This document shows, piece by piece, positions 8,924 through 64,000 of a stretch of 64,000 bases of DNA. This stretch comes from Eledone cirrhosa (Eukaryota). Numbering within the stretch: position 1 is the stretch's first letter; the number at the start of each line of letters is the position of its first letter. The stretch covers positions 21,700,001 through 21,764,000 of the forward strand of contig OZ024746.1 of assembly GCA_964016885.1 (NCBI GenBank), written 5' to 3'. A program made the translations under genes and the position numbers. Below the pieces are notes generated by a model that saw only the letters and a list, made by a program, of their open reading frames with translations, searched no databases and was not told the origin of the DNA.

Positions 8924-9035
<112 letters not shown>

Positions 9036-9149
9036 GTGTGTGTGTGTGTGTGTGTAAAAGGTAAACAGAAATAACAACACAATCAGTACAGTATATGGAA
9101 GGAATATATTGGGTTAACGCTTGAAACAGCAGGAATATATGTATATACA

Positions 9150-10285
9150 AAAAACATCATAATAGAAACAACACCTTCTTAAACTACCTTAACTCCACTA
9201 TTAAAGGATTTATAATAAAAATAGAAAAATCATAGTACATGCAGATAAAAGTAATAATATATATAGCTTAGATTACGATACTTATAGAAAATGTATATAT
9301 AAGGAACTGCATAGGAGCTATAAGAAAACTACTACTAAAAGCCTAGAAGATATAAAAATTGAAGGCCGTAATATAGTGAGTAAATTGGGACTTCAGAGAC
9401 ATACACAGCCATACACCCCTAATCCCCCAAGATTCTCTCTGAAGGACCATAAGGAAGACTTCATTAGTAACCCTTCAATTAGACAGATTTGCCCTTCCAA
9501 GTCTGACATTGGTATTATCAGCAAGAAAATATTAGATAAAATCATCCCACAATTTAAGCACAAAATATACCTTAACCAATGGGGAAATACGGGTGAGGTT
9601 ATTGAATGGTTCAAGGATATTAAAGAGTGTAAAAATAAAAAAATTATACAATTTGATATCAATTCTTACTACACCTCTATTTCCCCTATCCTATTAAATA
9701 AGGCTCTAATTATGGCCATGAACAATAGTGACCTGACTAGATCCCAAATTGATGTCATACTTGCGGCCCGAAAAACCATAATTACATTTGAAGAACAATT
9801 ATGGACCCGCAAGGATACGCATAACAACTTCGACATAACCATGGGATCAAGTGACTCGGCGCAGGTCACCGATTTGGTGGACCTATACCTACTTAATGAA
9901 ATCCATAAGAACCTACTCTACCTCAACGGTGGTTTATACCGCGATGATGCACTTCTTCTCATAGACTATAAAAAATTTAATATAGAAAAAACTAGGAAAC
10001 AGTTACACAAAATTTTCAAAAACTACAACTTAAGTATCACCTTAGATAAAAACACTAAAAACGTCAACTTCCTTGACGCTACTCTTAGCCTAGACTCTAG
10101 AATATACACACCCCATCATAAACCTAACGAAAACCTAATTTATGTGAACACCAACTCTAACCACCCTGAATCCATATTAAACTCCATTACCAAAGGAATA
10201 TCTAATAGAATCTCTAATCTATCATATAATGAAACTATATTTAACAATAATTCACAATACTATAATGAGACCTTAGCTAATATAG
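9150..10285 (+). mobile_element. Penelope-like element reverse transcriptase, truncated (ORF 9376-10302)
   Basis: PLE RT motifs QFDINSYYTSI, ITMGSSDSAQVTDLVDLYLL, GGLYRDD, VNFLDATL and YVNTNSNHP. No GIY-YIG domain follows in frame. Confidence 0.9.
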
Positions 10286-11319
10286 GAGAACTTCCAAATT
10301 AGGGACAATCAGGGTACCCCACAAGTGTATGCCCTCTTCCATTTTTCTTATTTGACCTACAGGCTCATGCTGAAAGTAGAACCATTCAATTCTGCTATAT
10401 TCGCCTCGGTCACTCATATTTTATAAAATTCACAAGAGGAGAGCATCTCCCTCTCCACATACACATTTGTTTTTAAATGGAATTTGAAAACAATCGATGA
10501 AAGCTTGACCAAAGAAGGCCTATCAACTCTGGGATCTTGACGAAGTTTTAGGGTTTCACCTGGATCAAAATCTCTTGTCATCGCTGGTGGTTCGCCTTCC
10601 TGGGGTGTCTGGTGATGCCCGTGAGGGTGTTTGGTTGTTTCAGTGCCTTAGCCTCGCCATCACCCATGGTAATGTTGCGAGCGTATTGGCTTGCCTCAAA
10701 ATATTCTGTTGACCCTTGTGATGTGCGGCCGATTGTCGCACTAGGTAGTGAAATGATGGTCGTTTTTGTTTTTGTTTCCTTTTTTTCTTTCTCTTGCGCT
10801 GGCCACGAATTTTGGTGTGTTGTATTTGTGATGGCCCAGCAATGGTTAATTGTATTTATTATATATGTTTAGATTTGTGTTTGTGTTTTCATTCTGAAGG
10901 AATTGTAAGCAATTTGTAATGTTATTTATGTATATATTTAAGACTTAATAAAAGTACGTAGACAAAAAAAAAACAATAACTTCCCTTATTCGAATACATA
11001 TTGTTTAAAATAACAGTACAGCTCTGTTGTTTTTGTTTTTTTCTCTATTTCGTTTGATGGATGACAGGATGTGTCAACCACAATCATTTTATCTTCTGCC
11101 ATTGAAGGAGTGTGGTACTCACGTTAAAATGACCGAGTTAAAAATTTCAGTCATGGAGTGTCATTTCAAATTCTACAACACAGCTGCGACCAACAGGCTA
11201 CTTTATGGTTTTTGACAAGTTTTAAAACTTGAACGAAATGTTAGAGTTGAGGAAAAACTCGAAAGTCCTAAAATTTTATGGAGCCGAGAAGAAGCGTGGC
11301 TTTCACCTCAGTAGTCAAT

Positions 11320-11994: not shown

Positions 11995-12075
<81 letters not shown>

Positions 12076-12195
12076 AGGTGAGTTTTATTGTAGTACAATA
12101 AAGCAATGCAGATATCGGATAAGAAGCACTCTACAGTTTGTAGGACTGGAGTATGCATAATATAAGATCAAAAGATGGTTAAAGGAGTTCCATGT

Positions 12196-12264
12196 ATTTT
12201 ATTATGCGCATTTCAAAAACAAACATCATCATGCAACAATATCTGTGTTTTCATCAGATAAAAC
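12196..12264 (-). ncRNA. type I hammerhead ribozyme motif (mirror copy in the palindrome)
   Basis: Reverse complement of 12383-12451. Confidence 0.7.
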
Positions 12265-12382
12265 AGGAGAACATGATATGAAGGCTAAAAAACACTTGTG
12301 GATAGTGCAGTTTTAAATCAACATGTTGATTTAAAACTGCACTATCCACAAGTGTTTTTTAGCCTTCATATCATGTTCTCCT

Positions 12383-12451
12383 GTTTTATCTGATGAAAAC
12401 ACAGATATTGTTGCATGATGATGTTTGTTTTTGAAATGCGCATAATAAAAT
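12383..12451 (+). ncRNA. type I hammerhead ribozyme motif
   Basis: gttttat-CTGATGA-[aaaca...tgttt, weak stem II]-GAAA-TGCGCA-TA-ataaaat. Stem I pairs and stem III is palindromic. Confidence 0.7.
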
Positions 12452-12482
12452 ACATGGAACTCCTTTAACCATCTTTTGATCT

Positions 12483-12544
<62 letters not shown>

Positions 12545-12548
<4 letters not shown>

Positions 12549-13146
12549 AAGAATGAAACGAAATTTCATTTCTCACTCTTAGTACGGCTGTTTACAAACA
12601 AACCGAACATTATAATAAATGTTCGGTAAACCCATACGTACATATATATATGTGTGCATGTATGTATATATATATACATACTACTGTACGTCTGTATACA
12701 TATATGTATGTACGTATACATACTTAGTATCAGCCGTACTAAGAGTGAGAAATGAAATTTCGTTTGATTCTTTTCCATTTATCGTTTTCGGTACGCCCGG
12801 CCGACTAACTCACTCGACATGCAAATTAGCCTGCTCAGCCGTTAATATGCATAAGGAAAGTATATACTTTCAAACGTTCAATCATCTGACAGGAACGTAT
12901 ACGATGCTGACGATAGCTAATAAGCTTGAAACTAGTTCATCGTTCATTTGTCAGTGTTGAACAAAAGGGCAACGATGGTTGCTGAACACTGTACGGCTTA
13001 ATTTGGGCTGTTTGTTTACAAACAAACCGAACATTATAATAAATGTTCGGTAAACACATACGTACATATATATATGTGTGTGCATGTATGTATATATATA
13101 CATACTACTGTACGTCTGTATACATATATGTATGTACGTATACATA

Positions 13147-13147
<1 letters not shown>
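12545..13147 (+). mobile_element. hammerhead-bearing non-coding element (about 1.3 tandem units plus inverted tail) between (TA)n tracts
   Basis: Direct repeat 12589-12723 vs 13013-13147, inverted 12546-12590 vs 12732-12776. Same family as 17451-18090 and 55838-56030. Confidence 0.75.
12901..12943 (+). ncRNA. minimal type I hammerhead ribozyme
   Basis: acgatg-CTGACGA-t-agct(aata)agct-t-GAAA-CTAG-TT-catcgt. Perfect 6-bp stem I and palindromic stem III. Confidence 0.88.
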
Positions 13148-13226
<79 letters not shown>

Positions 13227-13464
13227 GTGGTAGAACACTGCTGGAAGGTAATATCCGTAGTGGTAGAGCACTCAGTCCATGGGACGAGTTAGGTAGAAGT
13301 GGTTACGCAACAGTTAGTTCACCGTGTGTATTTATTCAGCTCTTCTTTCATGTGTTACCAAACACCAGTATATGATTCTGCTGTGTTAATCCGCCGTCGG
13401 CAGATAGTTCCTACCTTGGACGTAAACAAAAAACAAATTGTTCAACTTACATAGAATAAAATAA

Positions 13465-13514
<50 letters not shown>

Positions 13515-13530
13515 ATAGTAGTAGTAGTAA

Positions 13531-13586
<56 letters not shown>
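13465..13586. repeat. (TAG)n microsatellite
   Basis: About 40 TAG units with two TAA interruptions. Confidence 0.95.
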
Positions 13587-15400
13587 ACTATTTTATGGCT
13601 AATCCAAAGAGAACATACTATACTTAATAATAGACATCTATGTCAAATTGTTCGGAATATGTGATGGAAATTAAGTAATACAATTCCAGATACACACTGC
13701 CAGCAGTGTGTATCATATTTACATTTGATTGCGTGTCATGGTTCCACAAGGTTACTCATTCAATAGGAACATATTACCGAAAGCCCTTATGCATAACGAT
13801 ACAACATCATAAATTGTCTTAAAATGGTTTGTATAGATATGGTTTTAACCTTGTACACAGAGCGCATATATTTCTCCAGATCCAGTGACACAATCAAATC
13901 AAGCTCAATCGCCCAATACAGCTGGAAACTAAAATGTAGAAAAATCAAGAATGTTCGAATGATGTGAGGTTTTTTCAGAAAAGCTATACCACCCACACAT
14001 AGCAGACTTCATAAATACAAATCGTGTATTTCAGAAAAATATCATATTTAAAAAAGAACTTAATTTGTAAGAGACAAGACATTCTCTACATAGTCACACA
14101 AAAAATAATTTCTCCTTGCGACATTTAGAATACAACCAATATAATAACAGGTAATTTTACTTCTAAGATATTTACAGTTTTAAAATCAAGAAAATCGTAA
14201 ATAAATCTATTTCAATTAATAACAACACTACAGATATTTTTTAAAAAAACCCGGAAAATGAAGGGAAAGGCAAGGGCCCTGTGGTAACAGAAGAATGGGA
14301 GCGGGGAAAGAGAGAGTGATGGGCTCTAGGCCTAGAGCGCGGCGGTGTTAGGGCTGCACCACATGGACAAGATCGCAAAAGCATTTCCTAATCCATCTAG
14401 AGTAATCTCGACTTAAATCTAAAAATATATAGGTAGGCGGAAACTCGTGACGGGGCGACAGCAGGAGGATCTTCAGAGGAAGAACTCCCATCCTGCAAGT
14501 AATTCAGCCCTTCATTTATCCTAAAACTCACGTGTGTTGTTATCGCGGTTATACAATAACTGTAACATTCGTGGACTGCGGTAGGCAAGGAGAAATGCTA
14601 AAACTACCTCTCTCGTGAGCTGTGTAGCAACTCGACCGATATATTGAAAATCGTTTCGGTTTATACGAATGGCTATATGTCTTCGTAAAGTTTTCAAAAT
14701 GTAATATATTCGTCAACGTATGTGATGTGTTGAGTACATATTTCTGTATACAAATGTCAAAATATGTTATTTATGTATGAGCATTCACTTCCAGAATGAT
14801 TTTGACCACTGAAAAAATGATGAATCTGATATAATCTGAAGAAAAAATATGATTACAGAGTAGCTAGTTGAGTCTAGTAAGTAATATTATTGAATCATGT
14901 ACAACCAGTAAATCACATTAGAAATATTTTAAACATTATCAAGCTTTGCAATCTGTCTATACTTAAGCCAAATATATTATAAGTGTTTTTAAATGTTCTC
15001 TTAATGTTAAATATTAAAAAAAAAAAGAGAAAACGATGAAAAGAAGATAGAATGTAACATACATATAGACTAACTAGTACAAAAGAAAAAAAAAGGAATA
15101 GACAAAAAGAAAGAGAGCAGAAGAGGGGGAGAGGAAGAATGAGATATAGAAAACATGTAAAAAGAAAATTTAATGTATTTTATATCTTGTAACTGTAAAA
15201 AGATGAAAAACGTGGAAATTTGAAAAGATATAAATACACAAAGATAGAGACATAAAAAATAAAGATGCTGTTATTTGAGTTGACAGTGTATCCGTTGATT
15301 GACTGATAGTTCTGATTTCAAAACTAGGTTGCACTGAATTACTTATAAAGCGACTAAACTTGCAATGACCAAATTGTAGATATGCACAAACTGGGAAAGT

Positions 15401-15688
15401 GGAGGCGTAGCCTAGTGGTGATTTGGGGTTATGATCATAATATCGTGGGTTCGATTCCTGGAGTGGGGTGTGTGTTGTGTTCTTCAGCAAAACACTTCAT
15501 TTTACCTTACTCCAGTATACTCAGCTTAAAATGAGTACCAGCAATAGCTGAAGGTTTAATAACCCTTGATGGACTGATGTCCTGTCCAGGAGAGAGTATT
15601 GTACTCTCAGTCGTTTCACGCCACAGAAACCGGGATAAACACTGACCCGGTGAGCTTCTAGGCTCAAGACAGACTTTAGACTTTTAGA
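15401..15688 (+). mobile_element. full-length tRNA-derived CORE-type SINE
   Basis: A-box tagcctagtgg, B-box ggttcgattcc, CORE-like gtgttcttcagcaaaacacttcatttt, tail agactttagacttt. Copies at 27341-27590 and 34778-34965. Confidence 0.8.
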
Positions 15689-17396
15689 CCATGGGAAAGA
15701 GTTCATCTACAATATATGTAGCAGGTGAAACTACTCTAATAACAAATGTTTCAATTGTCTTCAGGTATAACTAGAAGCCATCAGCTTCACTGTTAAAACG
15801 CAAACAAGAGAATAAAATATTTTTCTCTTCAGGCATAGTAAAAATCATAAGCAATTGTCTTTACATGTTTCGCGGCTAGCTGAATTTACATCAGAAAACA
15901 TGTACGCTTCCTTTCCATCTACGAAAAGAGTTATTTATCAAATACTATTTATATCGAACCGAAGTCAGAGCTTAGTTTTCTTAGGAAGACGGTGATATGA
16001 ATCTAGGATATCGAGACTAGAAATAGGTGGTGACAACCACTAGTCAATATATCGATTTACCATGATCAATCAACCTTCTGAAACGATCGTAAGACAATGA
16101 ACTAATTAAGAACCTATTTTCAACTTTTGTTTTATTTTCAGAAGTCAATACACTGTGTGTGTGTGTGAGAGAGAGAGAGAGGGGGGTAGAGAGAGAGAGG
16201 GGGGATATCCGTAGATAAAAGGCCAAGGAAAACAATACTCAATCTACTATAAGAGAGTTTGAAAATTTGACTTTCGTCTGACGAGAGGCCAGTTTTAGAA
16301 CGGCTCTTACACTTAACAGTGGGGTCATAACTGTGTGTGTGTGAAATAGAAAGGGATATAATTGATAAAATTATCGACTATTGTTCTATTTTGGTTCGAC
16401 ACAAAGCCAAGTTTTCGTAGTTATCCTTGTCTGCAAATGTTGAAGTGGATTCAATTGAGACGAGTAATTTACGGAGGAAAGTTCAAATACGATAATAGTG
16501 AAATTTGAACTCAGAATGAGGAAATAAAATTGAATGTCTTAAGGCATTTCGCGAAAATTTAGTGCCCTAAAATATCAGCAAATATTGTTTCCTTTTCTTT
16601 AATACGAAGACATGGTAACATGTGATGTTCAGCTCGTTACTTAAGTGATACGAAGAGTAAACTAAACAGCTTTAACTGAGAATCAAATCTAGGTTTTGGC
16701 CTCTCATTATTACATATTTGCTCCCTAATCAACGATGTCGCCAATACATAATGGTAAGTTAGATCGTTATATTAAGTCAAGTTCGAACACGTTTATCTAT
16801 GAACAAAACACATTACAATGAGAGAGTGAAACGGAGAAGGGAAGTGTGGGGAAGGAGAGGGGACATTGTGATAGAAAAACAGTAGGAGAGATATTCGCAA
16901 ATACTTAGCTATTGTTATTGTTTAGCGCCACGTCCAATCAGTTCTGACTGAGCAAACGTATCAAGGCGTTCCATCCATGACTTTTCAACTTTTTGTTGTG
17001 CCGTTTTTTTTTTTGTGTTTTTTTTTTTTCATAGTAGCAGGTTGTGATTTAACTTATATTTGGTCACTATATCTAGCAAATCAAACCACTAGGTATTCGT
17101 TCCTATTATACTGTCAGTATCTACTTTCTGTGATGTCAATTAATTCAGGTCCATGCTGGGCTGGAAATAGGCCCAGGTCAGTGTAAAATGTAGGCCGCTT
17201 TTCAACTGGTCAGATGTAAAATACACACCCAATTTTAAACTGCTCATGAAGTATTTTAACAAACAGGGCTATAAACATATAATTTATATATGATTTACGA
17301 ATATATAGATGTACATAAGCTAAATAAGCTTTAGCTTAGGGACGTCATTTAAAAAAATATTATCATTAGTTTTTATTCTTTAACACTAAATCATCA

Positions 17397-17450
<54 letters not shown>

Positions 17451-17456
<6 letters not shown>

Positions 17457-18090
17457 GGAAAAAAATGAAACGAAATTTCATTTCTCACTCTTAGTACTTA
17501 AATATAAGTATGTATACGTACATACATATATGTATACAGACGTACAGTAGTATATATATATACATACATGCACACATATATATATATGTACGTATGGATT
17601 CACCGAACATTTATTATAATGCTCGGTGTGTTTGTAAACAAACATCCCGTATTAAGCCGTACAGTGTTTAGCAACCATCGTTGCTCATTTGTTCAACCCT
17701 GACAAAGGAACGCTGTATAGTTTCACGCTTATTAGCTATCGTCAGCAACGTATACCTTCCTGCCAGATGATTGAACGTCTGAAAGTATATACTTTCCTTA
17801 TACATATTAACGGCTGAGCAGCCTAATTTGCATATCGAGTGAGTTAATCGGCCGGGGTACCGAAAACGATAAACGGAAAAAATGAAACGAAATTTCATTT
17901 CTCACTCTTAGTACGGCTGTTATTTAAATATAAGTATGTATATGTACATACATATATGTATACAGATGTACAGTAATATGTATATGTATACAGACGTACA
18001 GTAGTATGTATATATATACATACATGCACACATATATATATATATGTACGTATGGATTCACCGAACATTTATGATAATGCTCGGTGTGTA
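17451..18090 (-). mobile_element. hammerhead-bearing non-coding element, about 1.5 tandem units of about 418 bp
   Basis: ataaacggaaaa..tgaaacgaaatttcatttctc recurs at 17451 and 17869. Reverse-complement homolog of 12545-13147, flanked by (TA)n. Confidence 0.75.
17710..17751 (-). ncRNA. type I hammerhead ribozyme motif (stem III 1 nt shorter)
   Basis: acgttg-CTGACGA-tagct(aata)agcgt-GAAA-cta-TA-cagcgt. Stem I differs from the 12901 copy but still pairs. Confidence 0.7.
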
Positions 18091-18100
18091 CGTATACATA

Positions 18101-18152
<52 letters not shown>

Positions 18153-21382: not shown

Positions 21383-21471
21383 GCATATTACAATTGTTTC
21401 GATATCGATCAGCTTAGGGTACAATCAAAGTGACGGGGCTCGACTCTTCTTCGACATCTCGTCTGATATGC
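21383..21471 (-). ncRNA. type I hammerhead-like motif with variant core CAGACGA
   Basis: gcatat-CAGACGA-gatgtcga...tcgatatc-GAAA-CAATTG-TA-atatgc. 6-bp stem I, 8-bp stem II, palindromic stem III. Confidence 0.75.
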
Positions 21472-22174
21472 GAATTTATATTTGCAAAGGTGCAAAGTCA
21501 TGTCTTTGCAAATATAAAATCGCATATCAGACGAGATGTCAAAGCAGAGTCGAGCCATGTCATCTTGATTGTACCCTAAGCTGTTCGATATCGAAACAAT
21601 TGACTATTGCACACTACAGCCATCTTAACTTTGGAATACAACCCACACGAGACGGACCTCGTAGCATATTGAATGCTTCGAACGAGGCGCTACCTGTAAC
21701 TGTAGTTACACATCTAAATAACATATATACTACATAACACACACACATATGTGGCGTGTATATATATATATTTATATACACCAGAGGCGTGTATATATAT
21801 ATACATTAGAGGCGTGTATACGGAAGCATATATGATGTGTTTATGTATGATAAACATACGAAAGTCTCTCTCACTATGAATATTTTTTAAAGTTGTGAAT
21901 ATGTCACTTGTATTTCAGTAGCGGTAAGAATACCAGGTAGCTATTTCTAGATGTTTACCCGTCTGGCGGACTGGGTCTAAAAATATTGGTTGCCAGGAGA
22001 TGAAAGGGTCCCACCTACATATAGAATGCTATCTTTTAATTTTTATAATGAATAAATAATATTTTCGAAAAATACATAAGTGGAAACAAAACAGTGCAAT
22101 CAAATTTTTGCGGAAAAATATCTTACCTTCTCCAATAAAAAATATGTATTTTGCGAAATCCAGAGATTTTCAAC

Positions 22175-41796: not shown

Positions 41797-41818
41797 ATTA
41801 TACGTCTGTACGAAGCTA

Positions 41819-41860
<42 letters not shown>

Positions 41861-41882
41861 TAGCTTCGTACAGACGTATAAT
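41797..41882. repeat. 86-bp palindrome centred on (AT)19
   Basis: attatacgtctgtacgaagctaag-(AT)19-cttagcttcgtacagacgtataat. Confidence 0.9.
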
Positions 41883-42546: not shown

Positions 42547-42814
42547 GGTAAACAGTAATAACAACACAATCGGTACAGTATATGGAAGGTATATATATAT
42601 ATATATTAGAATTGTTGCTCTGAAATAGCTATATATATATGAATGTATATATAGTGTATTTTGCAATACACTGTATGCTTAATAAAAAGCATTTTGAAGA
42701 CCTTATGCTATTGTTTTAGACCGGCAACCGCTCTGTATAATCAGTTCCTAATTATTTACTAGAATTCTATAAGAACCAAAACATCCGGGATTTCAGCAAA
42801 CGGGAGGAGTAGTT

Positions 42815-42860
42815 GGCTTTGATAAGCATCAATAAATGCAGAAACAAGGCCTTGTCAGCT
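42815..42860 (+). ncRNA. hammerhead motif, U3-A8 variant, in the loop of a foldback
   Basis: ggct-TTGATAA-gcat(caataa)atgc-a-GAAA-CAAGGCCTTG-TC-agct, with one extra A before GAAA. Outer stem atttcagcaaac/gtttgctgaaat. Confidence 0.65.
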
Positions 42861-43269
42861 TTATCTCCCCCCTGTTTGCTGAAATTAAAGTAAGTGAGTC
42901 TGTCACTACTCTAAAACAATAGCATAAGGTCTTCAAAATGCTTTTTATTAAGCATACAGTGTATTGCAAAATACACTATATATACATTCATATATATATA
43001 TATATATATATAGGATAACAAGGTATCGTTTAAGGTAATCCAGCTAGAGGTTGTGAGTACTCTGTGTTGAGGATAGTTTTAACGTACGGCGTTGTTTGAC
43101 TCAATAAGAAGTTTCATTAGTCAGGTGGCCAGTTTAATGGAGTTCCTAGGCAGGTGGTTCTTGGAGTAATAATAGTTAAAGAATTAAGAATAACATGGTC
43201 GGCTGTACAAAAAATAGTTTATTTACAGTATTAACAATTGTTTCATTAATCAGGTGATTAATGAAACTA

Positions 43270-44417: not shown

Positions 44418-46525
44418 ATCATCATCATCATCCTCATCATCATTTTACGTCCAATTTTCCCTGCTTGCAAGGGTTGGACCGGTCCTATTCAGCACAGCAT
44501 CTCTCTACTTGTCACGGTCCTTCGTCATCTCCTCCGTGAGTTTCAGCGATCTCAGGTCTGCTCTCACCACCTCCGCCCATGTTTTACGTGGCTTACCTCT
44601 ACTGCGTCTTCCTTCTACTGAGATTTCTTGGCACTTCTTTACCCAGCGGTCATCCTCCATGCGCATCACATGTCCATGCCATCTCAGCCTTCTCTCCTGC
44701 ACACCACAACTTATCCTTCTTATACCCAGTTTCTTTCTCAACTCGTCTATGCTTGGTCGCACATTGTCATTGCACATCCAACGGAGCATACTTGCTTCAT
44801 TTCTCTCCAGCCGTCGCATATCCTCTGCAGTTGCTGCCCATGTCTCACCACCACAGACATCATATAACCGTCCTTTCGTACGCAGGGAGAAACCCTTCTT
44901 TGTCAACAAAGGAAGTAGCTCCCTAAACTTCTTCCAACCCGTACTTATTCTAGATACTATGGCCTCGGAACACCTCATGCTAATCTGATCACCTAGGTAC
45001 CGGAAGCTATCAACCACTTCTATAGAACCCACCTACATTGGAAAAATGTGTCTATCACTGCGATTACTACTGCCAACTTTCCCTGTTCATCTACTGCATA
45101 CGTAGTTTTCCCTACCTGTTAGTTTGCCTGCTATCTCACTACATCTCTTGTGTACCCAAGATCTGCATTGCGTACATTTTATGGAATTTATGCCAGTTCC
45201 TTTCCTAAATATCGAACATGACCATTTTTTTGATGGAATCGGAGTATTATCCTCTCTTCTACTTATCAACTCTTTTTGTCTTAGCTATGTTCACTCTCAG
45301 TCCTCTTGATTCCAACTGCTGTTTCCATAGCCAGAATTTCTTCTCTAGCTCCTCTACTGATTCTGCTATAAGAACCAGATCATCAGCATAGAGAAGTTCC
45401 CATGGTCATCCAGTCTTAAACTCCTCTGTTGACTTGGAGGACCTTAACGAACAAGAACAGGCTGAGGACCGAACCCTGATGTACCCCTACTTCTATCTGG
45501 ATTCCCCACTAAACTCCATACCTACTCTCACTTTACTGACAGCACCCCTGTACATAGCTTGCACTGTCCTCACAAGCCATTCCTCTACACCTAGTTTCCT
45601 TAGGGACCACCATATAACAGATCGGGGTACCCTATCAAATGCCTTCTCTAGGTCAACTAAAGTTAAGTATAGTGGCTTATTCTTCTCTAAGAACTTCTCA
45701 TGTAGTTGTCTCACCAAGAAGAGGGCATCTGTTGTACTTTTCCGAGGCACAAAACCAAACTGCATCTCATCTAATTTTACCCTTTCTCTAATCAGTTGCG
45801 CTAATATTCTCTCTGCCACTTTCATAATCTGATCCATCAGCTTTATGCTCCTATAATTGCCCCTCTTCAGAGCATCCCCTTTACCTTTGTAGCAATTTAT
45901 GAGAATACTACTGCACCAGTATTTGGGTATGACACCACCATATATAACTTGATTGATGATGCGTGCAACCAGTTTAATGCCTACTTCACCTGATGTCTTC
46001 AACATCTCAGCAACTATCCCCGACGGTCCAGCAGCCTTACCATTCTTCATTTCTTTAATTGCCTCTTGTACCCTATATTCGTCAATCTCAATAGATGGTC
46101 CCTCTGTTGGGTCTACTGGGGGTAATTTCTCTGTCCCATTCATTCTCCACATTCATCAGTCTCTCATAGTAACATTTGCAGGCCTCCTTTTTGTTTATCA
46201 TTGGTGACACTAAGTACACCGGCATCATTCCGGACACACTTATCTCCAACAACATCCTGATTTGCACTGACACACTGCCTTGCAATGCGGAACACCGCAC
46301 GTCTCTGATATTCCCGTCGCAGAACATTGACAAACCTCCTACTCTCAGCCTCCCTGTGTGCTAAGTACATCTGACGTCTAGCTTCTCTCTTAGAGGCTGT
46401 GTATCCCTCCCTACGCCCACCATTTCCCCAAACCTTCCATGCCAGTCTTTTATCTCTAATGGCCTTATCTACCGTGCTGTTCCACCACCAGGTTACTCTC
46501 TGTCTGGTTGAAGCTCTGCCCCAAC
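44418..46525 (-). mobile_element. 5'-truncated RTE-clade LINE with frameshifted RT and PHD-like finger
   Basis: GKAAGPSG, NYRSIKLM, QFGFVP, VDLEKAFDRVP, PWELLYADDL, VVDSFRYLG, RRLRWHGHVMRM, GKPRKTW. (CAT)n tail at 44418-44443. Confidence 0.93.
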
Positions 46526-46548
46526 CACATACATACATACATTTATAT

Positions 46549-46860
46549 ACAGGGAAGATTACTTATAAATTTTGGCCTACTATGACCACTTGGGACAGCA
46601 TCAATGACTTCATATTCATGCATGATGTGGCTGCCCATCATTTTGCACTGTCTGTGAGTGGCTTAACGTCAAATTTCCATGCGAATTTTTCAAGAGGGGG
46701 TCGGCAAAGGCAGAAGTTTATAGTCCGAAACCAAAACCTCTTACTTGAATTGGAGGAACGCATTCGTCATGTACAGACCAGCATACCACCTGAGTTCCTG
46801 ATGAAGTCTGTCAAGGATATTCCCAGACGACTACAAACAGTTTCTTTCCACCCACCCAGT
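46549..46860 (+). mobile_element. internally deleted copy of the DD41D-type mariner
   Basis: Homologous to 19670-20158. Begins TA-caggg and ends cccacccag-tta. Confidence 0.65.
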
Positions 46861-48817: not shown

Positions 48818-48976
48818 TTGGATTTAATGCTCTGAAATAGCGATATATATGTGAAGATAAACACAGAATATTCGAAATATTCTGTATGTTTATAATAAAC
48901 ATTTTGAAGACCTAATCGCTATAGAATAGAATACGTCACGTATTACAATTTGAGATTCTCGATAAAAGCAAGGGAA

Positions 48977-49019
48977 GTAACCTACGCGTTTCATTCTTAT
49001 TAGAAATCATCAGGATTAC
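48977..49019 (-). ncRNA. minimal type I hammerhead ribozyme
   Basis: gtaatc-CTGATGA-t-ttct(aata)agaa-t-GAAA-CGCG-TA-ggttac, enclosed by cgataaaagca/tgcttttatcg. Confidence 0.85.
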
Positions 49020-49088
49020 ATATCCAGTGCTTTTATCGAAATGTTTATTATAAACATACAGAATATTTTCGAATATTCTGTGTTTATC

Positions 49089-49197
<109 letters not shown>

Positions 49198-52039: not shown

Positions 52040-53468
<1,429 letters not shown>

Positions 53469-55691: not shown

Positions 55692-56399
55692 ATGTATATA
55701 CATATCTTGTGTTTATATTTAAGTTGTTTTTATTTTATTTTCTCCCCCCCCCCACACACACACTGCCCCCACACACACACTCACACCTATCGTTGTCTTT
55801 TACTTTATTTTGTTTTTGTTTATATATATATATATATATATAAGTATGTATACGTACATACATATATGTATACAGACGTACAGTAGTATGTATATATATA
55901 CATACATGCACACATATATATATGTACGTATGGATTCACCGAACATTTATTATAATGCTCGGTGTGTTTGTAAACAAACATCCCGTATTAAGCCGTACAG
56001 TGTTTGGCAACCATCGTTGCCCTTTTGTTATATATATTTTGTTATATATATGTTGTTCTTATTTATTTTTTTTTCGTTATTTCTGCTTGCTTACTACTTC
56101 CCAATTTTAGTGTATATATCTGTGTATATGTATGTGTATGTATTTATGTTCCTGTCCATATTTCTTTGTAGACGCTAATACGTTTGTGTGAGTTTACGTC
56201 TATTTACTTTTTAATATATGCGCGTAGTTGATTGTGTGTATGTTTACGTTCTAGATATTTATATTTTTATTCTTATATATATATATTTTATATTTTTTCC
56301 CCTATTTCCTTTTCGCCCGTTTTTTTTTTTAGCCTCACTTTCATATTTCCTAAATTTTATTTTCAAATCCATATTTAATAAAAACACCATGTTTTTTTA

Positions 56400-61675: not shown

Positions 61676-62844
61676 GTAAATGATTATTTTCACAATTTCT
61701 TGCTTATAAGCTAGTACGAGGTGAACATTGCCTTTCATCCTTTCGGGGTCAATAAAACGTACAGGGGTCGATTCTTTTTCTATATCTCTTTCTCGCTTTC
61801 ATTCTCTCTTAATTTCTATCTTTCTCTGGGAGAAATCTGCTGTGTTCAGACGTGGAGAGTGATGGGTTCTGCCAGGCTTAAAATGCCCAAGAAACACTGT
61901 ATGTATTTAAGGCACCTCTACGATTCCATCAGAAATTACGGCACCGTATTATATACCATCCCTTTAGTTTTTAACGTCCTTTTCTGCAGACTAAGCAGAA
62001 ACATGTCCAGATTTCTCTTTCCTGCTTTTTGAAAAAAGGAGAAAAAAATCAATATTACTCACTAATATTCATTGATCTCAAGCATATTTAATCTTCACTT
62101 AAATATTTTAATATTCCATGCATTAAAACTCTTTCCCCATTATAACTATGAAAAGGATTAATTATAAATCAGAGTAATTTACTGTATATTTTGTGTATAA
62201 TATGATAAGTTTTGAATTAAAATTAAGAGATCATTATACATGAGTATATGTTTGCAAATATTTTTACTGAGCTTAAAAATAAACAATTGTTTACAACTGC
62301 TAAACATTTGGTTGTTTTACATTCTTCCACTGGGATTTCTTGGCACTTCTTCACTCAACAATCATCATCCATGTGTAGAAATTGTAAGGCCAGGGAGACT
62401 ATTTTAGTCTTGCCAAATACAAAACCACCTTTTTAATAATGGGACTCTCAGTAAGCTTTGTAACTTGGTTGGTGTTAGGAGTGTCTGTCTTGCCATAGAA
62501 TCCATGACCAAAATCTAATATGTGACATGCAAGATGTGACCATATTTAAAAGATCAGTAACTCTAAATAAAAATTGACCTGAACTGGGACAACACATTCA
62601 ACCTTTAGCAACTTATAAACAGATGTAAAAATTATGATCATGATGCAATCTTAAATGAATTGCGTCGGGGGGCAGGGGCATAAAAAGAAAAAACAAGCTG
62701 TTAGTGGTTGGAACAGGACACAATTGACTCATAGAAGGTCAGCTAAACATACATAGGTATAAGCTGTAACAACATGATAGGATTGAATCTCCTTTCATTA
62801 AAATACTCAAAAAATCTTTTATGAGATACAACCTCATAGGTGGT

Positions 62845-63936
62845 GAGCTGAACCTACATGGATGTGAGCTAAACCTACATGGATGTGAGCTGAACCTACA
62901 TGGATGTGAGCTGAACCTACATGGATGTGAGCTAAACCTACATGGATGTGAGCTGAACCTACATGGATGTGAGCTAAACCTACATGGATGTGAGCTGAAC
63001 CTACATGGATGTGAGCTAAACCTACATGGATGTGAGCTGAACCTACATGGATGTGAGCTAAACCTACATGGATGTGAGCTAAACCTACATGGATGTGAGC
63101 TGAACCTACATGGATGTGAGCTAAACCTACATGGATGTGAGCTAAACCTACATGGATGTGAGCTGAACCTACATGGATGTGAGCTAAACCTACATGGATG
63201 TGAGCTGAACCTACATGGATGTGAGCTAAACCTACATGGATGTGAGCTAAACCTACATGGATGTGAGCTGAACCTACATGGATGTGAGCTAAACCTACAT
63301 GGATGTGAGCTAAACCTACATGGATGTGAGCTGAACCTACATGGATGTGAGCTAAACCTACATGGATGTGAGCTAAACCTACATGGATGTGAGCTGAACC
63401 TACATGGATGTGAGCTAAACCTACATGGATGTGAGCTGAACCTACATGGATGTGAGCTGAACCTACATGGATGTGAGCTGAACCTACATGGATGTGAGCT
63501 AAACCTACATGGATGTGAGCTGAACCTACATGGATGTGAGCTAAACCTACATGGATGTGAGCTAAACCTACATGGATGTGAGCTGAACCTACATGGATGT
63601 GAGCTAAACCTACATGGATGTGAGCTAAACCTACATGGATGTGAGCTAAACCTACATGGATGTGAGCTGAACCTACATGGATGTGAGCTGAACCTACATG
63701 GATGTGAGCTAAACCTACATGGATGTGAGCTGAACCTACATGGATGTGAGCTAAACCTACATGGATGTGAGCTAAACCTACATGGATGTGAGCTGAACCT
63801 ACATGGATGTGAGCTAAACCTACATGGATGTGAGCTAAACCTACATGGATGTGAGCTAAACCTACATGGATGTGAGCTGAACCTACATGGATGTGAGCTG
63901 AACCTACATGGATGTGAGCTGAACCTACATGGATGT
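62845..63936. repeat. 21-bp minisatellite, 52 copies, GAGCT(G/A)AACCTACATGGATGT
   Basis: Directly visible, and only position 6 varies. Confidence 0.97.
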
Positions 63937-64000
63937 GAGTTATAACAACGACTTGATAGAACTGGGGCCTCAATTATCAAAACACCCAAGAAACCTCCTG

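What the first reader, a model, noticed from the sequence alone, without database searches (positions are those of the whole stretch)
12545..18090. About 420-bp tandem-unit family with a textbook minimal hammerhead (retrozyme-sized)
Seen: two opposite-orientation copies (12545-13147, 17451-18090) and a fragment (55838-56030). The two long copies exceed one unit, with circularly permuted ends, and lie between TA tracts. Stem I differs between copies (acgatg/catcgt vs acgttg/cagcgt) yet still pairs. Inference: more-than-unit-length permuted insertions are expected from reverse transcription of a circular or tandem RNA template.
Basis: partly seen in the sequence, partly recalled or inferred. Interest (0 to 1): 0.75.

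Follow-up and report, generated by a model that had tools for sequence, protein, structure and literature searches.

The report
Penelope-mobilised hammerhead retrozyme family
This is one of more than ten thousand copies of a small protein-free repeat carrying a predicted self-cutting RNA motif, and its ends match the two-site insertion pattern of Penelope-type jumping genes in the same genome, so their enzyme likely copies it, possibly from a circular RNA.

Summary
Real, but the anatomy needs correcting. The three copies belong to an ORF-less family with a 420-435 bp unit and a type I hammerhead; the genome holds 10,263 exact intact cores. The ends are not freely permuted. Of 120 sampled 3' ends, 102 sit at one of two sites about 56 nt apart; 5' ends are scattered. 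Both long window copies carry an overlooked inverted arm. In back-to-back insertions with both ends classed, one arm ends at each site in 25 of 26; 13 of 41 had an unclassed end. A young Hydra-type Penelope element of this genome follows the same rule (9 of 9). Copies run through the ribozyme site (50 of 56), up to 7.4 units; no copy was found joined to an ORF. Window copy 2's ribozyme is decayed. Best reading: a non-LTR retrozyme moved in trans by Penelope enzymes. A circular versus an uncut tandem template is unresolved, and expression and cleavage are untested. The scan reported this architecture before for other families of this genome; this family had no sequence match there. New member of a known kind.

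The parts
12488..12545 (.). (TA)n tract at the left end of insertion 1 (shared with the neighbouring palindromic element)
   Evidence: sequence
12546..12590 (-). Inverted short arm of insertion 1; its 3' end is at the long (L) site; 2-nt overlap with the forward arm
   Evidence: reverse complement of 12731-12775
12589..13149 (+). Main arm of insertion 1: 561 bp, 1.3 units of 424 bp, subfamily A1; 3' end at the short (S) site, about 212 nt after the predicted cleavage site
12901..12943 (+). Intact type I hammerhead: stem I ACGATG/CATCGT, core CTGACGA and GAAA, stem II with U.U base and TAATAA loop, palindromic stem III ACTAGT; predicted cleavage after 12937; stem I extension 12887-12895 with 12943-12953
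13150..13196 (.). (TA)n tract at the 3' end of insertion 1
17402..17452 (.). (TA)n tract at the 3' (L) end of insertion 2
17451..18089 (-). Main arm of insertion 2, about 1.5 units, subfamily A2; 3' end at the long (L) site
17710..17751 (-). Decayed hammerhead of copy 2 (stem I ACGTTG/CAGCGT is the subfamily form; one stem III base missing, one stem II pair broken)
18089..18104 (+). 16-bp inverted arm of insertion 2, ending at the short (S) site, followed by (TA)n
   Evidence: sequence
55838..56029 (-). 5'-truncated copy without ribozyme (unit position about 23 to the S site), between TA-rich tracts
9205..10302 (+). Fragment of a Hydra-type Penelope-like RT; not part of the retrozyme; led to the intact family of the candidate mobiliser class

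Best explanation
This is a high-copy, ORF-less tandem repeat with a conserved type I hammerhead whose insertions sit in (TA)n and end at two fixed sites, and it is likely a non-LTR retrozyme copied in trans by a (TA)n-targeting Penelope-like (probably Hydra-clade) RT-endonuclease. Shown: unit, copy number, hammerhead conservation, two 3' end sites about 213 and 269 nt past the predicted cleavage site, scattered 5' ends, back-to-back arms with one end of each kind, read-through of the ribozyme site, and the same end rule in an intact PLE family of this genome. Inferred: tandem copies are transcribed and self-cleave into about 425-nt monomers that may be circularised. The PLE enzyme would cut both strands of a (TA)n tract and start reverse transcription inside the RNA, at site S from one DNA end and at site L from the other. 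Each cDNA would run towards the 5' end, across the ribozyme junction, for a variable length; the two would then be joined 5' to 5', or one lost.
For: 10,263 exact 31-nt cores, reversed-pattern control 0; 21,946 matches to a downstream 20-mer. Position sample from the start of contig C1 (100 loci, 127 segments, 80 insertions): of 120 outer 3' ends 58 are L, 44 S, 18 other; 41 insertions are back-to-back, 28 have both ends classed, and 27 of these are S+L; 25 of 26 after removing two local duplicates, P=2.5e-7 against independent ends. In 66 segments not chosen for the ribozyme, 35 exceed one unit and 7 exceed two; 50 of 56 cross the cleavage site; 6 end near it against 4.0 expected, P=0.21; the longest arm is 3,197 unit-nt, 7.4 units. 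The two arms of one insertion differ by 3.2% (28 pairs) against 8.1% between insertions (709 pairs) and share 25 of 156 rare-variant sites against 25 of 4,904 in the control. An intact 832-aa PLE family carries the Hydra motifs described in PMC8557442 section 11 (RWR, DKT, CxCX5C, GIY-YIG-like, read by eye), inserts in (TA)n and has two 3' ends 164 nt apart, one of each in 9 of 9 back-to-back insertions with both ends visible among 20 loci. PMC11167929 (sections read) shows a PLE cutting and extending both strands and starting RT at two internal sites that define the tail. Stem I keeps pairing through A-U, U.G and G.U, and a second family changes all three stems around the same core. A genomic monomer folds at z=-7.2, and folded as a circle its MFE forms the three hammerhead stems across the junction.
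Against: No sequence link between the unit and the terminal region of the one PLE family examined: the matches were independent insertions in the flanks or TA-rich sequence. The mobilising family is therefore not identified, and (TA)n-preferring Naiad PLEs are also listed for cephalopods. The PLE call rests on motifs read by eye; Pfam and PDB gave nothing significant. In PMC11167929 hammerhead cleavage was not needed and uncut RNA was the main substrate, so read-through does not prove a circle. 13 of 41 back-to-back insertions have at least one end outside S/L, and 18 of 120 ends are unclassed. Only 9 of 28 arm pairs share a rare variant, and arm similarity could also come from two RNAs of one source locus or from later conversion. 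Rfam has no hammerhead hit. The U.U at the base of stem II and the short stem III suggest weak monomer cleavage. Exact-pattern sampling favours young, intact copies.
Confidence: 0.8

Rival explanations
1. Same element and enzyme, but the template is always a linear, uncut multimer transcribed from genomic tandem arrays; no circle takes part in retrotransposition. This rivals the circle step only.
For: PMC11167929: hammerhead mutants did not change insertion, and unprocessed RNA was the dominant substrate. Arrays of up to 7.4 units exist and could serve as templates. There is no pile-up at the cleavage site.
Against: No recurring polarised difference between the last and the previous unit (at most 2 recurrences among 51 neighbour pairs), and neighbours differ by 3.0%, the same as paired arms. 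This fits copying of one monomer, but the test is weak if there are many source loci. Inference: arrays could not lengthen from linear templates without jumps or recombination.
Confidence: 0.4
2. Plain terminal-repeat (pLTR) debris of an autonomous Penelope-like element: the copies are 5'-truncated ends of an ORF-bearing element.
For: Every end feature is PLE-like. PLE fragments lie near some copies (13 of 160 loci by tblastn, several being overlapping windows). The Li et al. 2026 preprint finds retrozymes related to pLTRs. A rare parent could be missed in this sample.
Against: Upstream of the ribozyme the copies continue into another unit, for up to 7.4 turns. Among 127 5' flanks, the 40 that were not unit-like share no common junction sequence. 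The closest candidates are separate insertions (L038 and L068). Of 30 atypical continuations past the L end, 14 were scored unit, 10 TA and 6 other, and none ran into an ORF.
Confidence: 0.1
3. A DNA-level satellite or fold-back/assembly artefact: local tandem duplication and palindrome formation, with no RNA step.
For: Some local duplications exist (two in L189). TA-rich and inverted sequence is error-prone in assemblies.
Against: Thousands of dispersed copies; two fixed 3' ends with scattered 5' ends; the two arms are unequal, end at different fixed sites and differ by about 3%; the ribozyme is conserved with covariation.
Confidence: 0.04
4. A SINE-like element moved by a LINE (RTE- or CR1-type) enzyme, with L1-style twin priming making the inversions.
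For: LINE RT fragments are present in the window (45493-46152).
Against: Twin priming (recalled) inverts upstream, non-overlapping sequence and gives one 3' end. Here both arms cover the same sequence and each has its own fixed 3' end, and the 3' ends lie inside the unit.
Confidence: 0.04

Closest known systems
Metazoan non-LTR retrozymes (Cervera and de la Pena 2020, PMC7229834; parts 2-4 of 6 of the text read)
   Same: ORF-less tandem unit of a few hundred bp with one type I hammerhead, thousands of copies, low GC, highly self-paired predicted RNA, no LTR, co-existing PLEs. The U.U at the base of stem II is described there for axolotl HHR_Amex2, and a palindromic helix III cap for HHR_Amex1.
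   Different: The unit (420-435 bp) is above their 170-400 nt RNA range but within the 150-450 bp repeat range. Circles and cleavage were shown there and are untested here. The parts read do not describe fixed two-site 3' ends, back-to-back arms or (TA)n targeting.
Vertebrate non-LTR retrozymes as PLE derivatives (Li, Clavereau and Pollet 2026, bioRxiv 10.64898/2026.07.22.740005; abstract, part 1 of 2 of Results and Discussion read; supplements closed)
   Same: Proposes that retrozymes are non-autonomous PLE derivatives mobilised by PLE enzymes.
   Different: Their evidence is co-occurrence and pLTR homology, mostly in vertebrates. Here no parent pLTR was found, and the evidence is the shared insertion-end signature.
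Hydra-clade PLEs (Craig et al. 2021, PMC8557442; sections 11 and 15, passages, three supplement rows seen)
   Same: (TA)n insertion, hammerhead, partial tandems, an inverted 5'-truncated copy, and a tail at one end only.
   Different: No RT-endonuclease ORF; the tail is about 56 nt rather than 30-40; the unit closes on itself.
Poseidon PLE of Anolis, PAc (Frangieh et al. 2024, PMC11167929; parts 1-2 of 4 read)
   Same: Two internal RT start sites downstream of the hammerhead define the tail; both DNA strands are cut and extended; AT-rich targets.
   Different: PAc is autonomous and its start sites are not homologous to the target, whereas S and L both carry 2-4 nt of TA ambiguity with the target. 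The parts read report no strand difference in start site, while here the two arms take one site each.

Membership tests
Metazoan non-LTR retrozyme | Type I hammerhead in each unit | tested here: met
   Descriptor scan with control; conserved core and alternative pairs across subfamilies; no Rfam hit
Metazoan non-LTR retrozyme | Tandem unit of 150-450 bp, dispersed, monomer to multimer | tested here: met
   Periods 420-435 bp and arrays to 7.4 units
Metazoan non-LTR retrozyme | No protein-coding capacity and no attached ORF | tested here: met
   Only TA-repeat-derived frames overlap the copies; no ORF joined in register; a rare parent is not excluded
Metazoan non-LTR retrozyme | Highly self-paired predicted monomer or circle | tested here: met
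   z=-7.2 for one genomic monomer (the TA-rich stretch contributes); circular fold forms the hammerhead
Metazoan non-LTR retrozyme | Self-cleavage of the transcript | not testable with these tools
   Needs a transcription assay
Metazoan non-LTR retrozyme | Expressed as unit-length linear and circular RNA | not testable with these tools
Metazoan non-LTR retrozyme | Target-site duplications, when present, longer than 4 bp | tested here: inconclusive
   Insertions lie in (TA)n, where duplications cannot be read
Autonomous PLE (Hydra clade) | RT plus GIY-YIG ORF between pLTRs | tested here: not met
   The unit has no such ORF; the PLE found is a separate family
PLE-type insertion (works like) | Two 3' end sites (tail at one end), inverted 5'-truncated copy, partial tandems, microsatellite target | tested here: met
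   same in the intact PLE
Plant LTR retrozyme | Type III hammerheads in two LTRs with 4-bp TSD | tested here: not met
   Type I topology and no LTR pair

The most novel reading that the evidence does not exclude
Each back-to-back insertion is the footprint of one Penelope RT-endonuclease dimer copying a single circular retrozyme RNA from both ends of a cut (TA)n tract, one subunit starting at site S and the other at site L, each rolling across the ligated ribozyme junction. That would make the retrozyme circle a true retrotransposition template and explain the PLE tail and inverted repeat as a strict one-site-per-strand rule.
Probability: 0.4. Interest if true: 0.72.

Novelty: new member of a known kind. 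Interest (0 to 1): 0.52.

Why it matters
That PLE enzymes mobilise animal retrozymes, and that the circle is the template, are proposals in the papers read (PMC7229834; bioRxiv 10.64898/2026.07.22.740005), supported by co-occurrence and pLTR homology. This family gives a countable footprint: the same two-site, one-per-arm end rule as an intact, young PLE of the same genome. It supplies a 425-nt RNA with two predicted start sites and a candidate enzyme class, so the existing in vitro PLE assay (PMC11167929) can test trans-mobilisation and circle versus linear template directly. As a family it is an ordinary new retrozyme; the interest is in the mechanism test.

Tried and rejected
Rfam: no hammerhead family among the 150 listed of 180 matches in the window (mostly miRNA models on TA repeats) or at E 10 on 12860-12980. 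The first undusted self-BLAST was swamped by microsatellites. Short local folds of the hammerhead were not better than shuffles (z -1.4 to +0.5). Pfam and PDB did not annotate the PLE ORF. The top-identity loci were not used for end statistics because they are selected to span the ribozyme. Rows dropped before counts: hits under 79% identity, hits cut by a locus edge, short hits confined to the TA-rich part, and 8 contained segments; one search also dropped two local duplicates. A cluster of 5' ends at unit 102-132 was set aside as an artefact of aligning into TA flanks. A cluster of about 7 ends at unit 392-399, just before the ribozyme core, is unexplained; the flanks I could see there differ. 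The 312-bp family at 48840-49090 was tested as a link to a parent PLE: it is another ORF-less tandem family with no BLAST similarity to this unit. My notebook says 10 of 10 for the PLE end rule; the correct count is 9 of 9, because one locus has a masked end. Literature searches listed no paper on this family or on a one-site-per-arm rule in retrozymes; most subscription journals, Repbase and the preprint supplements were not searchable. The host was not identified; 'octopus' was used as a search word from recall of the repeat landscape.
Full report
Observation. The three copies exist. Copy 1 repeats with a period of 424 bp. Its first 45 bp (12546-12590) are not a permuted part of the unit but an inverted arm, and copy 2 has a 16-bp inverted arm at 18089-18104. 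Copy 3 (55838-56029) is 5'-truncated and lacks the ribozyme. The hammerhead at 12901-12943 has type I topology and a predicted cleavage after 12937. A descriptor scan found 7 motifs in the window against 0.01 per simulated window. Copy 2's motif is not among them, because it lacks a stem III base and has a broken stem II pair. Rfam does not recognise the motif, and short folds alone are unremarkable.

Family. The host genome (G000, 3.0 Gb) holds 10,263 exact matches to a 31-nt core, control 0, and 21,946 to a downstream 20-mer. Copy 1 and copy 2 each have many relatives at 95-98% identity. Among 173 motif rows the pair is U.G, A-U or G.U in the common variants, and a second family varies all three stems around the same core. 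One genomic monomer folds far better than shuffles (z=-7.2); folded as a circle it forms the hammerhead across the junction.

Ends. For counts I used 100 loci around places listed first on contig C1 (fetched the extra stretches). They gave 127 segments in 80 insertions (dropped rows are listed under Tried and rejected). Of 120 outer 3' ends, 44 lie at site S (about 213 nt after the cleavage site), 58 at site L (about 269 nt) and 18 elsewhere, most followed by (TA)n. The 5' ends cover the whole unit. Forty-one insertions are back-to-back. Of the 28 with both ends classed, 27 have one S and one L; after removing two local duplicates this is 25 of 26, P=2.5e-7. Both long window copies obey the rule. 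In the 66 segments chosen only by the downstream 20-mer, 35 exceed one unit and 7 exceed two; 50 of 56 cross the cleavage site, and 6 end near it against 4.0 expected. So 'circularly permuted ends' is half right: 5' ends are free and 3' ends are fixed.

Template. Over non-repetitive positions, the two arms of an insertion differ by 3.2% and tandem neighbours by 3.0%, against 8.1-8.6% between insertions. Arms share 25 of 156 rare-variant sites against 25 of 4,904 in the control, though only 9 of 28 insertions contribute. Both arms therefore come from the same or a very close template. No recurring polarised difference between successive units was seen, which fits copying of a monomer circle but has low power.

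Candidate enzyme. The window holds an RT fragment at 9205-10302. It led to a young family with an intact 832-aa ORF whose motifs, read by eye, match the Hydra clade as described in PMC8557442 section 11; Pfam and PDB were uninformative. This PLE inserts in (TA)n and has two 3' ends 164 nt apart, 47 and 211 nt after a variant hammerhead. Nine of 9 back-to-back insertions with both ends visible have one of each. Its terminal region shows no similarity to the retrozyme unit, so it represents the enzyme class, not a proven partner. A 312-bp hammerhead family in the window shows the same pattern with ends at unit 141 and about 167.

Is it pLTR debris? No copy examined is joined in register to an ORF. 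Non-unit 5' flanks share no common junction (40 of 127), the nearest candidates are separate insertions, and none of 30 atypical continuations past L enters an ORF. A rare parent is not excluded.

Mechanism and prior work. PMC11167929 showed in vitro that a PLE cuts and extends both strands of AT-rich DNA and starts RT at two internal sites that define the tail. It also showed that ribozyme cleavage was not needed. PMC7229834 showed circles for coral, mussel and axolotl retrozymes and proposed PLEs as mobilisers. The 2026 preprint links retrozymes to pLTRs. Best reading (0.8): a non-LTR retrozyme moved in trans by a (TA)n-targeting PLE, with one start site per DNA end. Whether the template is a circle or an uncut multimer is open (roughly even). 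Cleavage and expression are untested.

Novelty. New member of a known kind. Six searches listed no paper on this family or on the one-site-per-arm rule for retrozymes. Earlier notes of this scan describe the same architecture for other families of this genome, and none matched this family by sequence. I had derived the end rule before reading those notes; they supplied the preprint and the Hydra supplement lead.

Noticed in passing
window 12075-12490: A perfect 334-bp palindrome (12157-12490) with a hammerhead in each arm (12257 minus, 12390 plus) and 82 extra bases at the left end only, between TA tracts; it looks like a very young back-to-back insertion of another family with a tail. Its right end lies about 46 nt after the predicted cleavage site, close to the 47 nt of the intact PLE.
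   Followed up: partly
window 48840-49090 (minus): Copy of a 312-bp tandem hammerhead family with the same ribozyme architecture (U.U base, TAATAA loop, palindromic stem III) but changed stems; two 3' ends at unit 141 and about 167; many genomic copies 99-100% identical to the query.
   Followed up: yes
window 42361 (+), 53565 (-), 56406 (+): Three more hammerhead motifs near TA tracts; the first two are one family and resemble the palindromic element's ribozyme.
   Followed up: no
window 9033-10302; L151:3623-7818: Hydra-type PLE fragment; its young relative has many near-identical intact 832-aa copies, a 4,199-bp unit and a hammerhead with the core variant CCGAAGA; both of its 3' ends are followed in the unit by the motif TAACTGCTC.
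   Followed up: partly
unit positions 392-399 in C1 loci (for example L080, L087, L184, L188): About 7 of 106 5' ends cluster just before the ribozyme core; possibly RT stalling at stem I.
   Followed up: no
window 62770-63973: Long 21-bp tandem array giving open frames on both strands.
   Followed up: no
window 44505-46562 (minus) and 52118-53047 (+): Broken LINE-type RT fragments and a broken Tc1/mariner-like transposase (labels recalled from motifs, not tested).
   Followed up: no
window 42630-43000, 41797-41882, 21391-21602: Further inverted repeats next to TA tracts; possibly more back-to-back PLE-type insertions.
   Followed up: no
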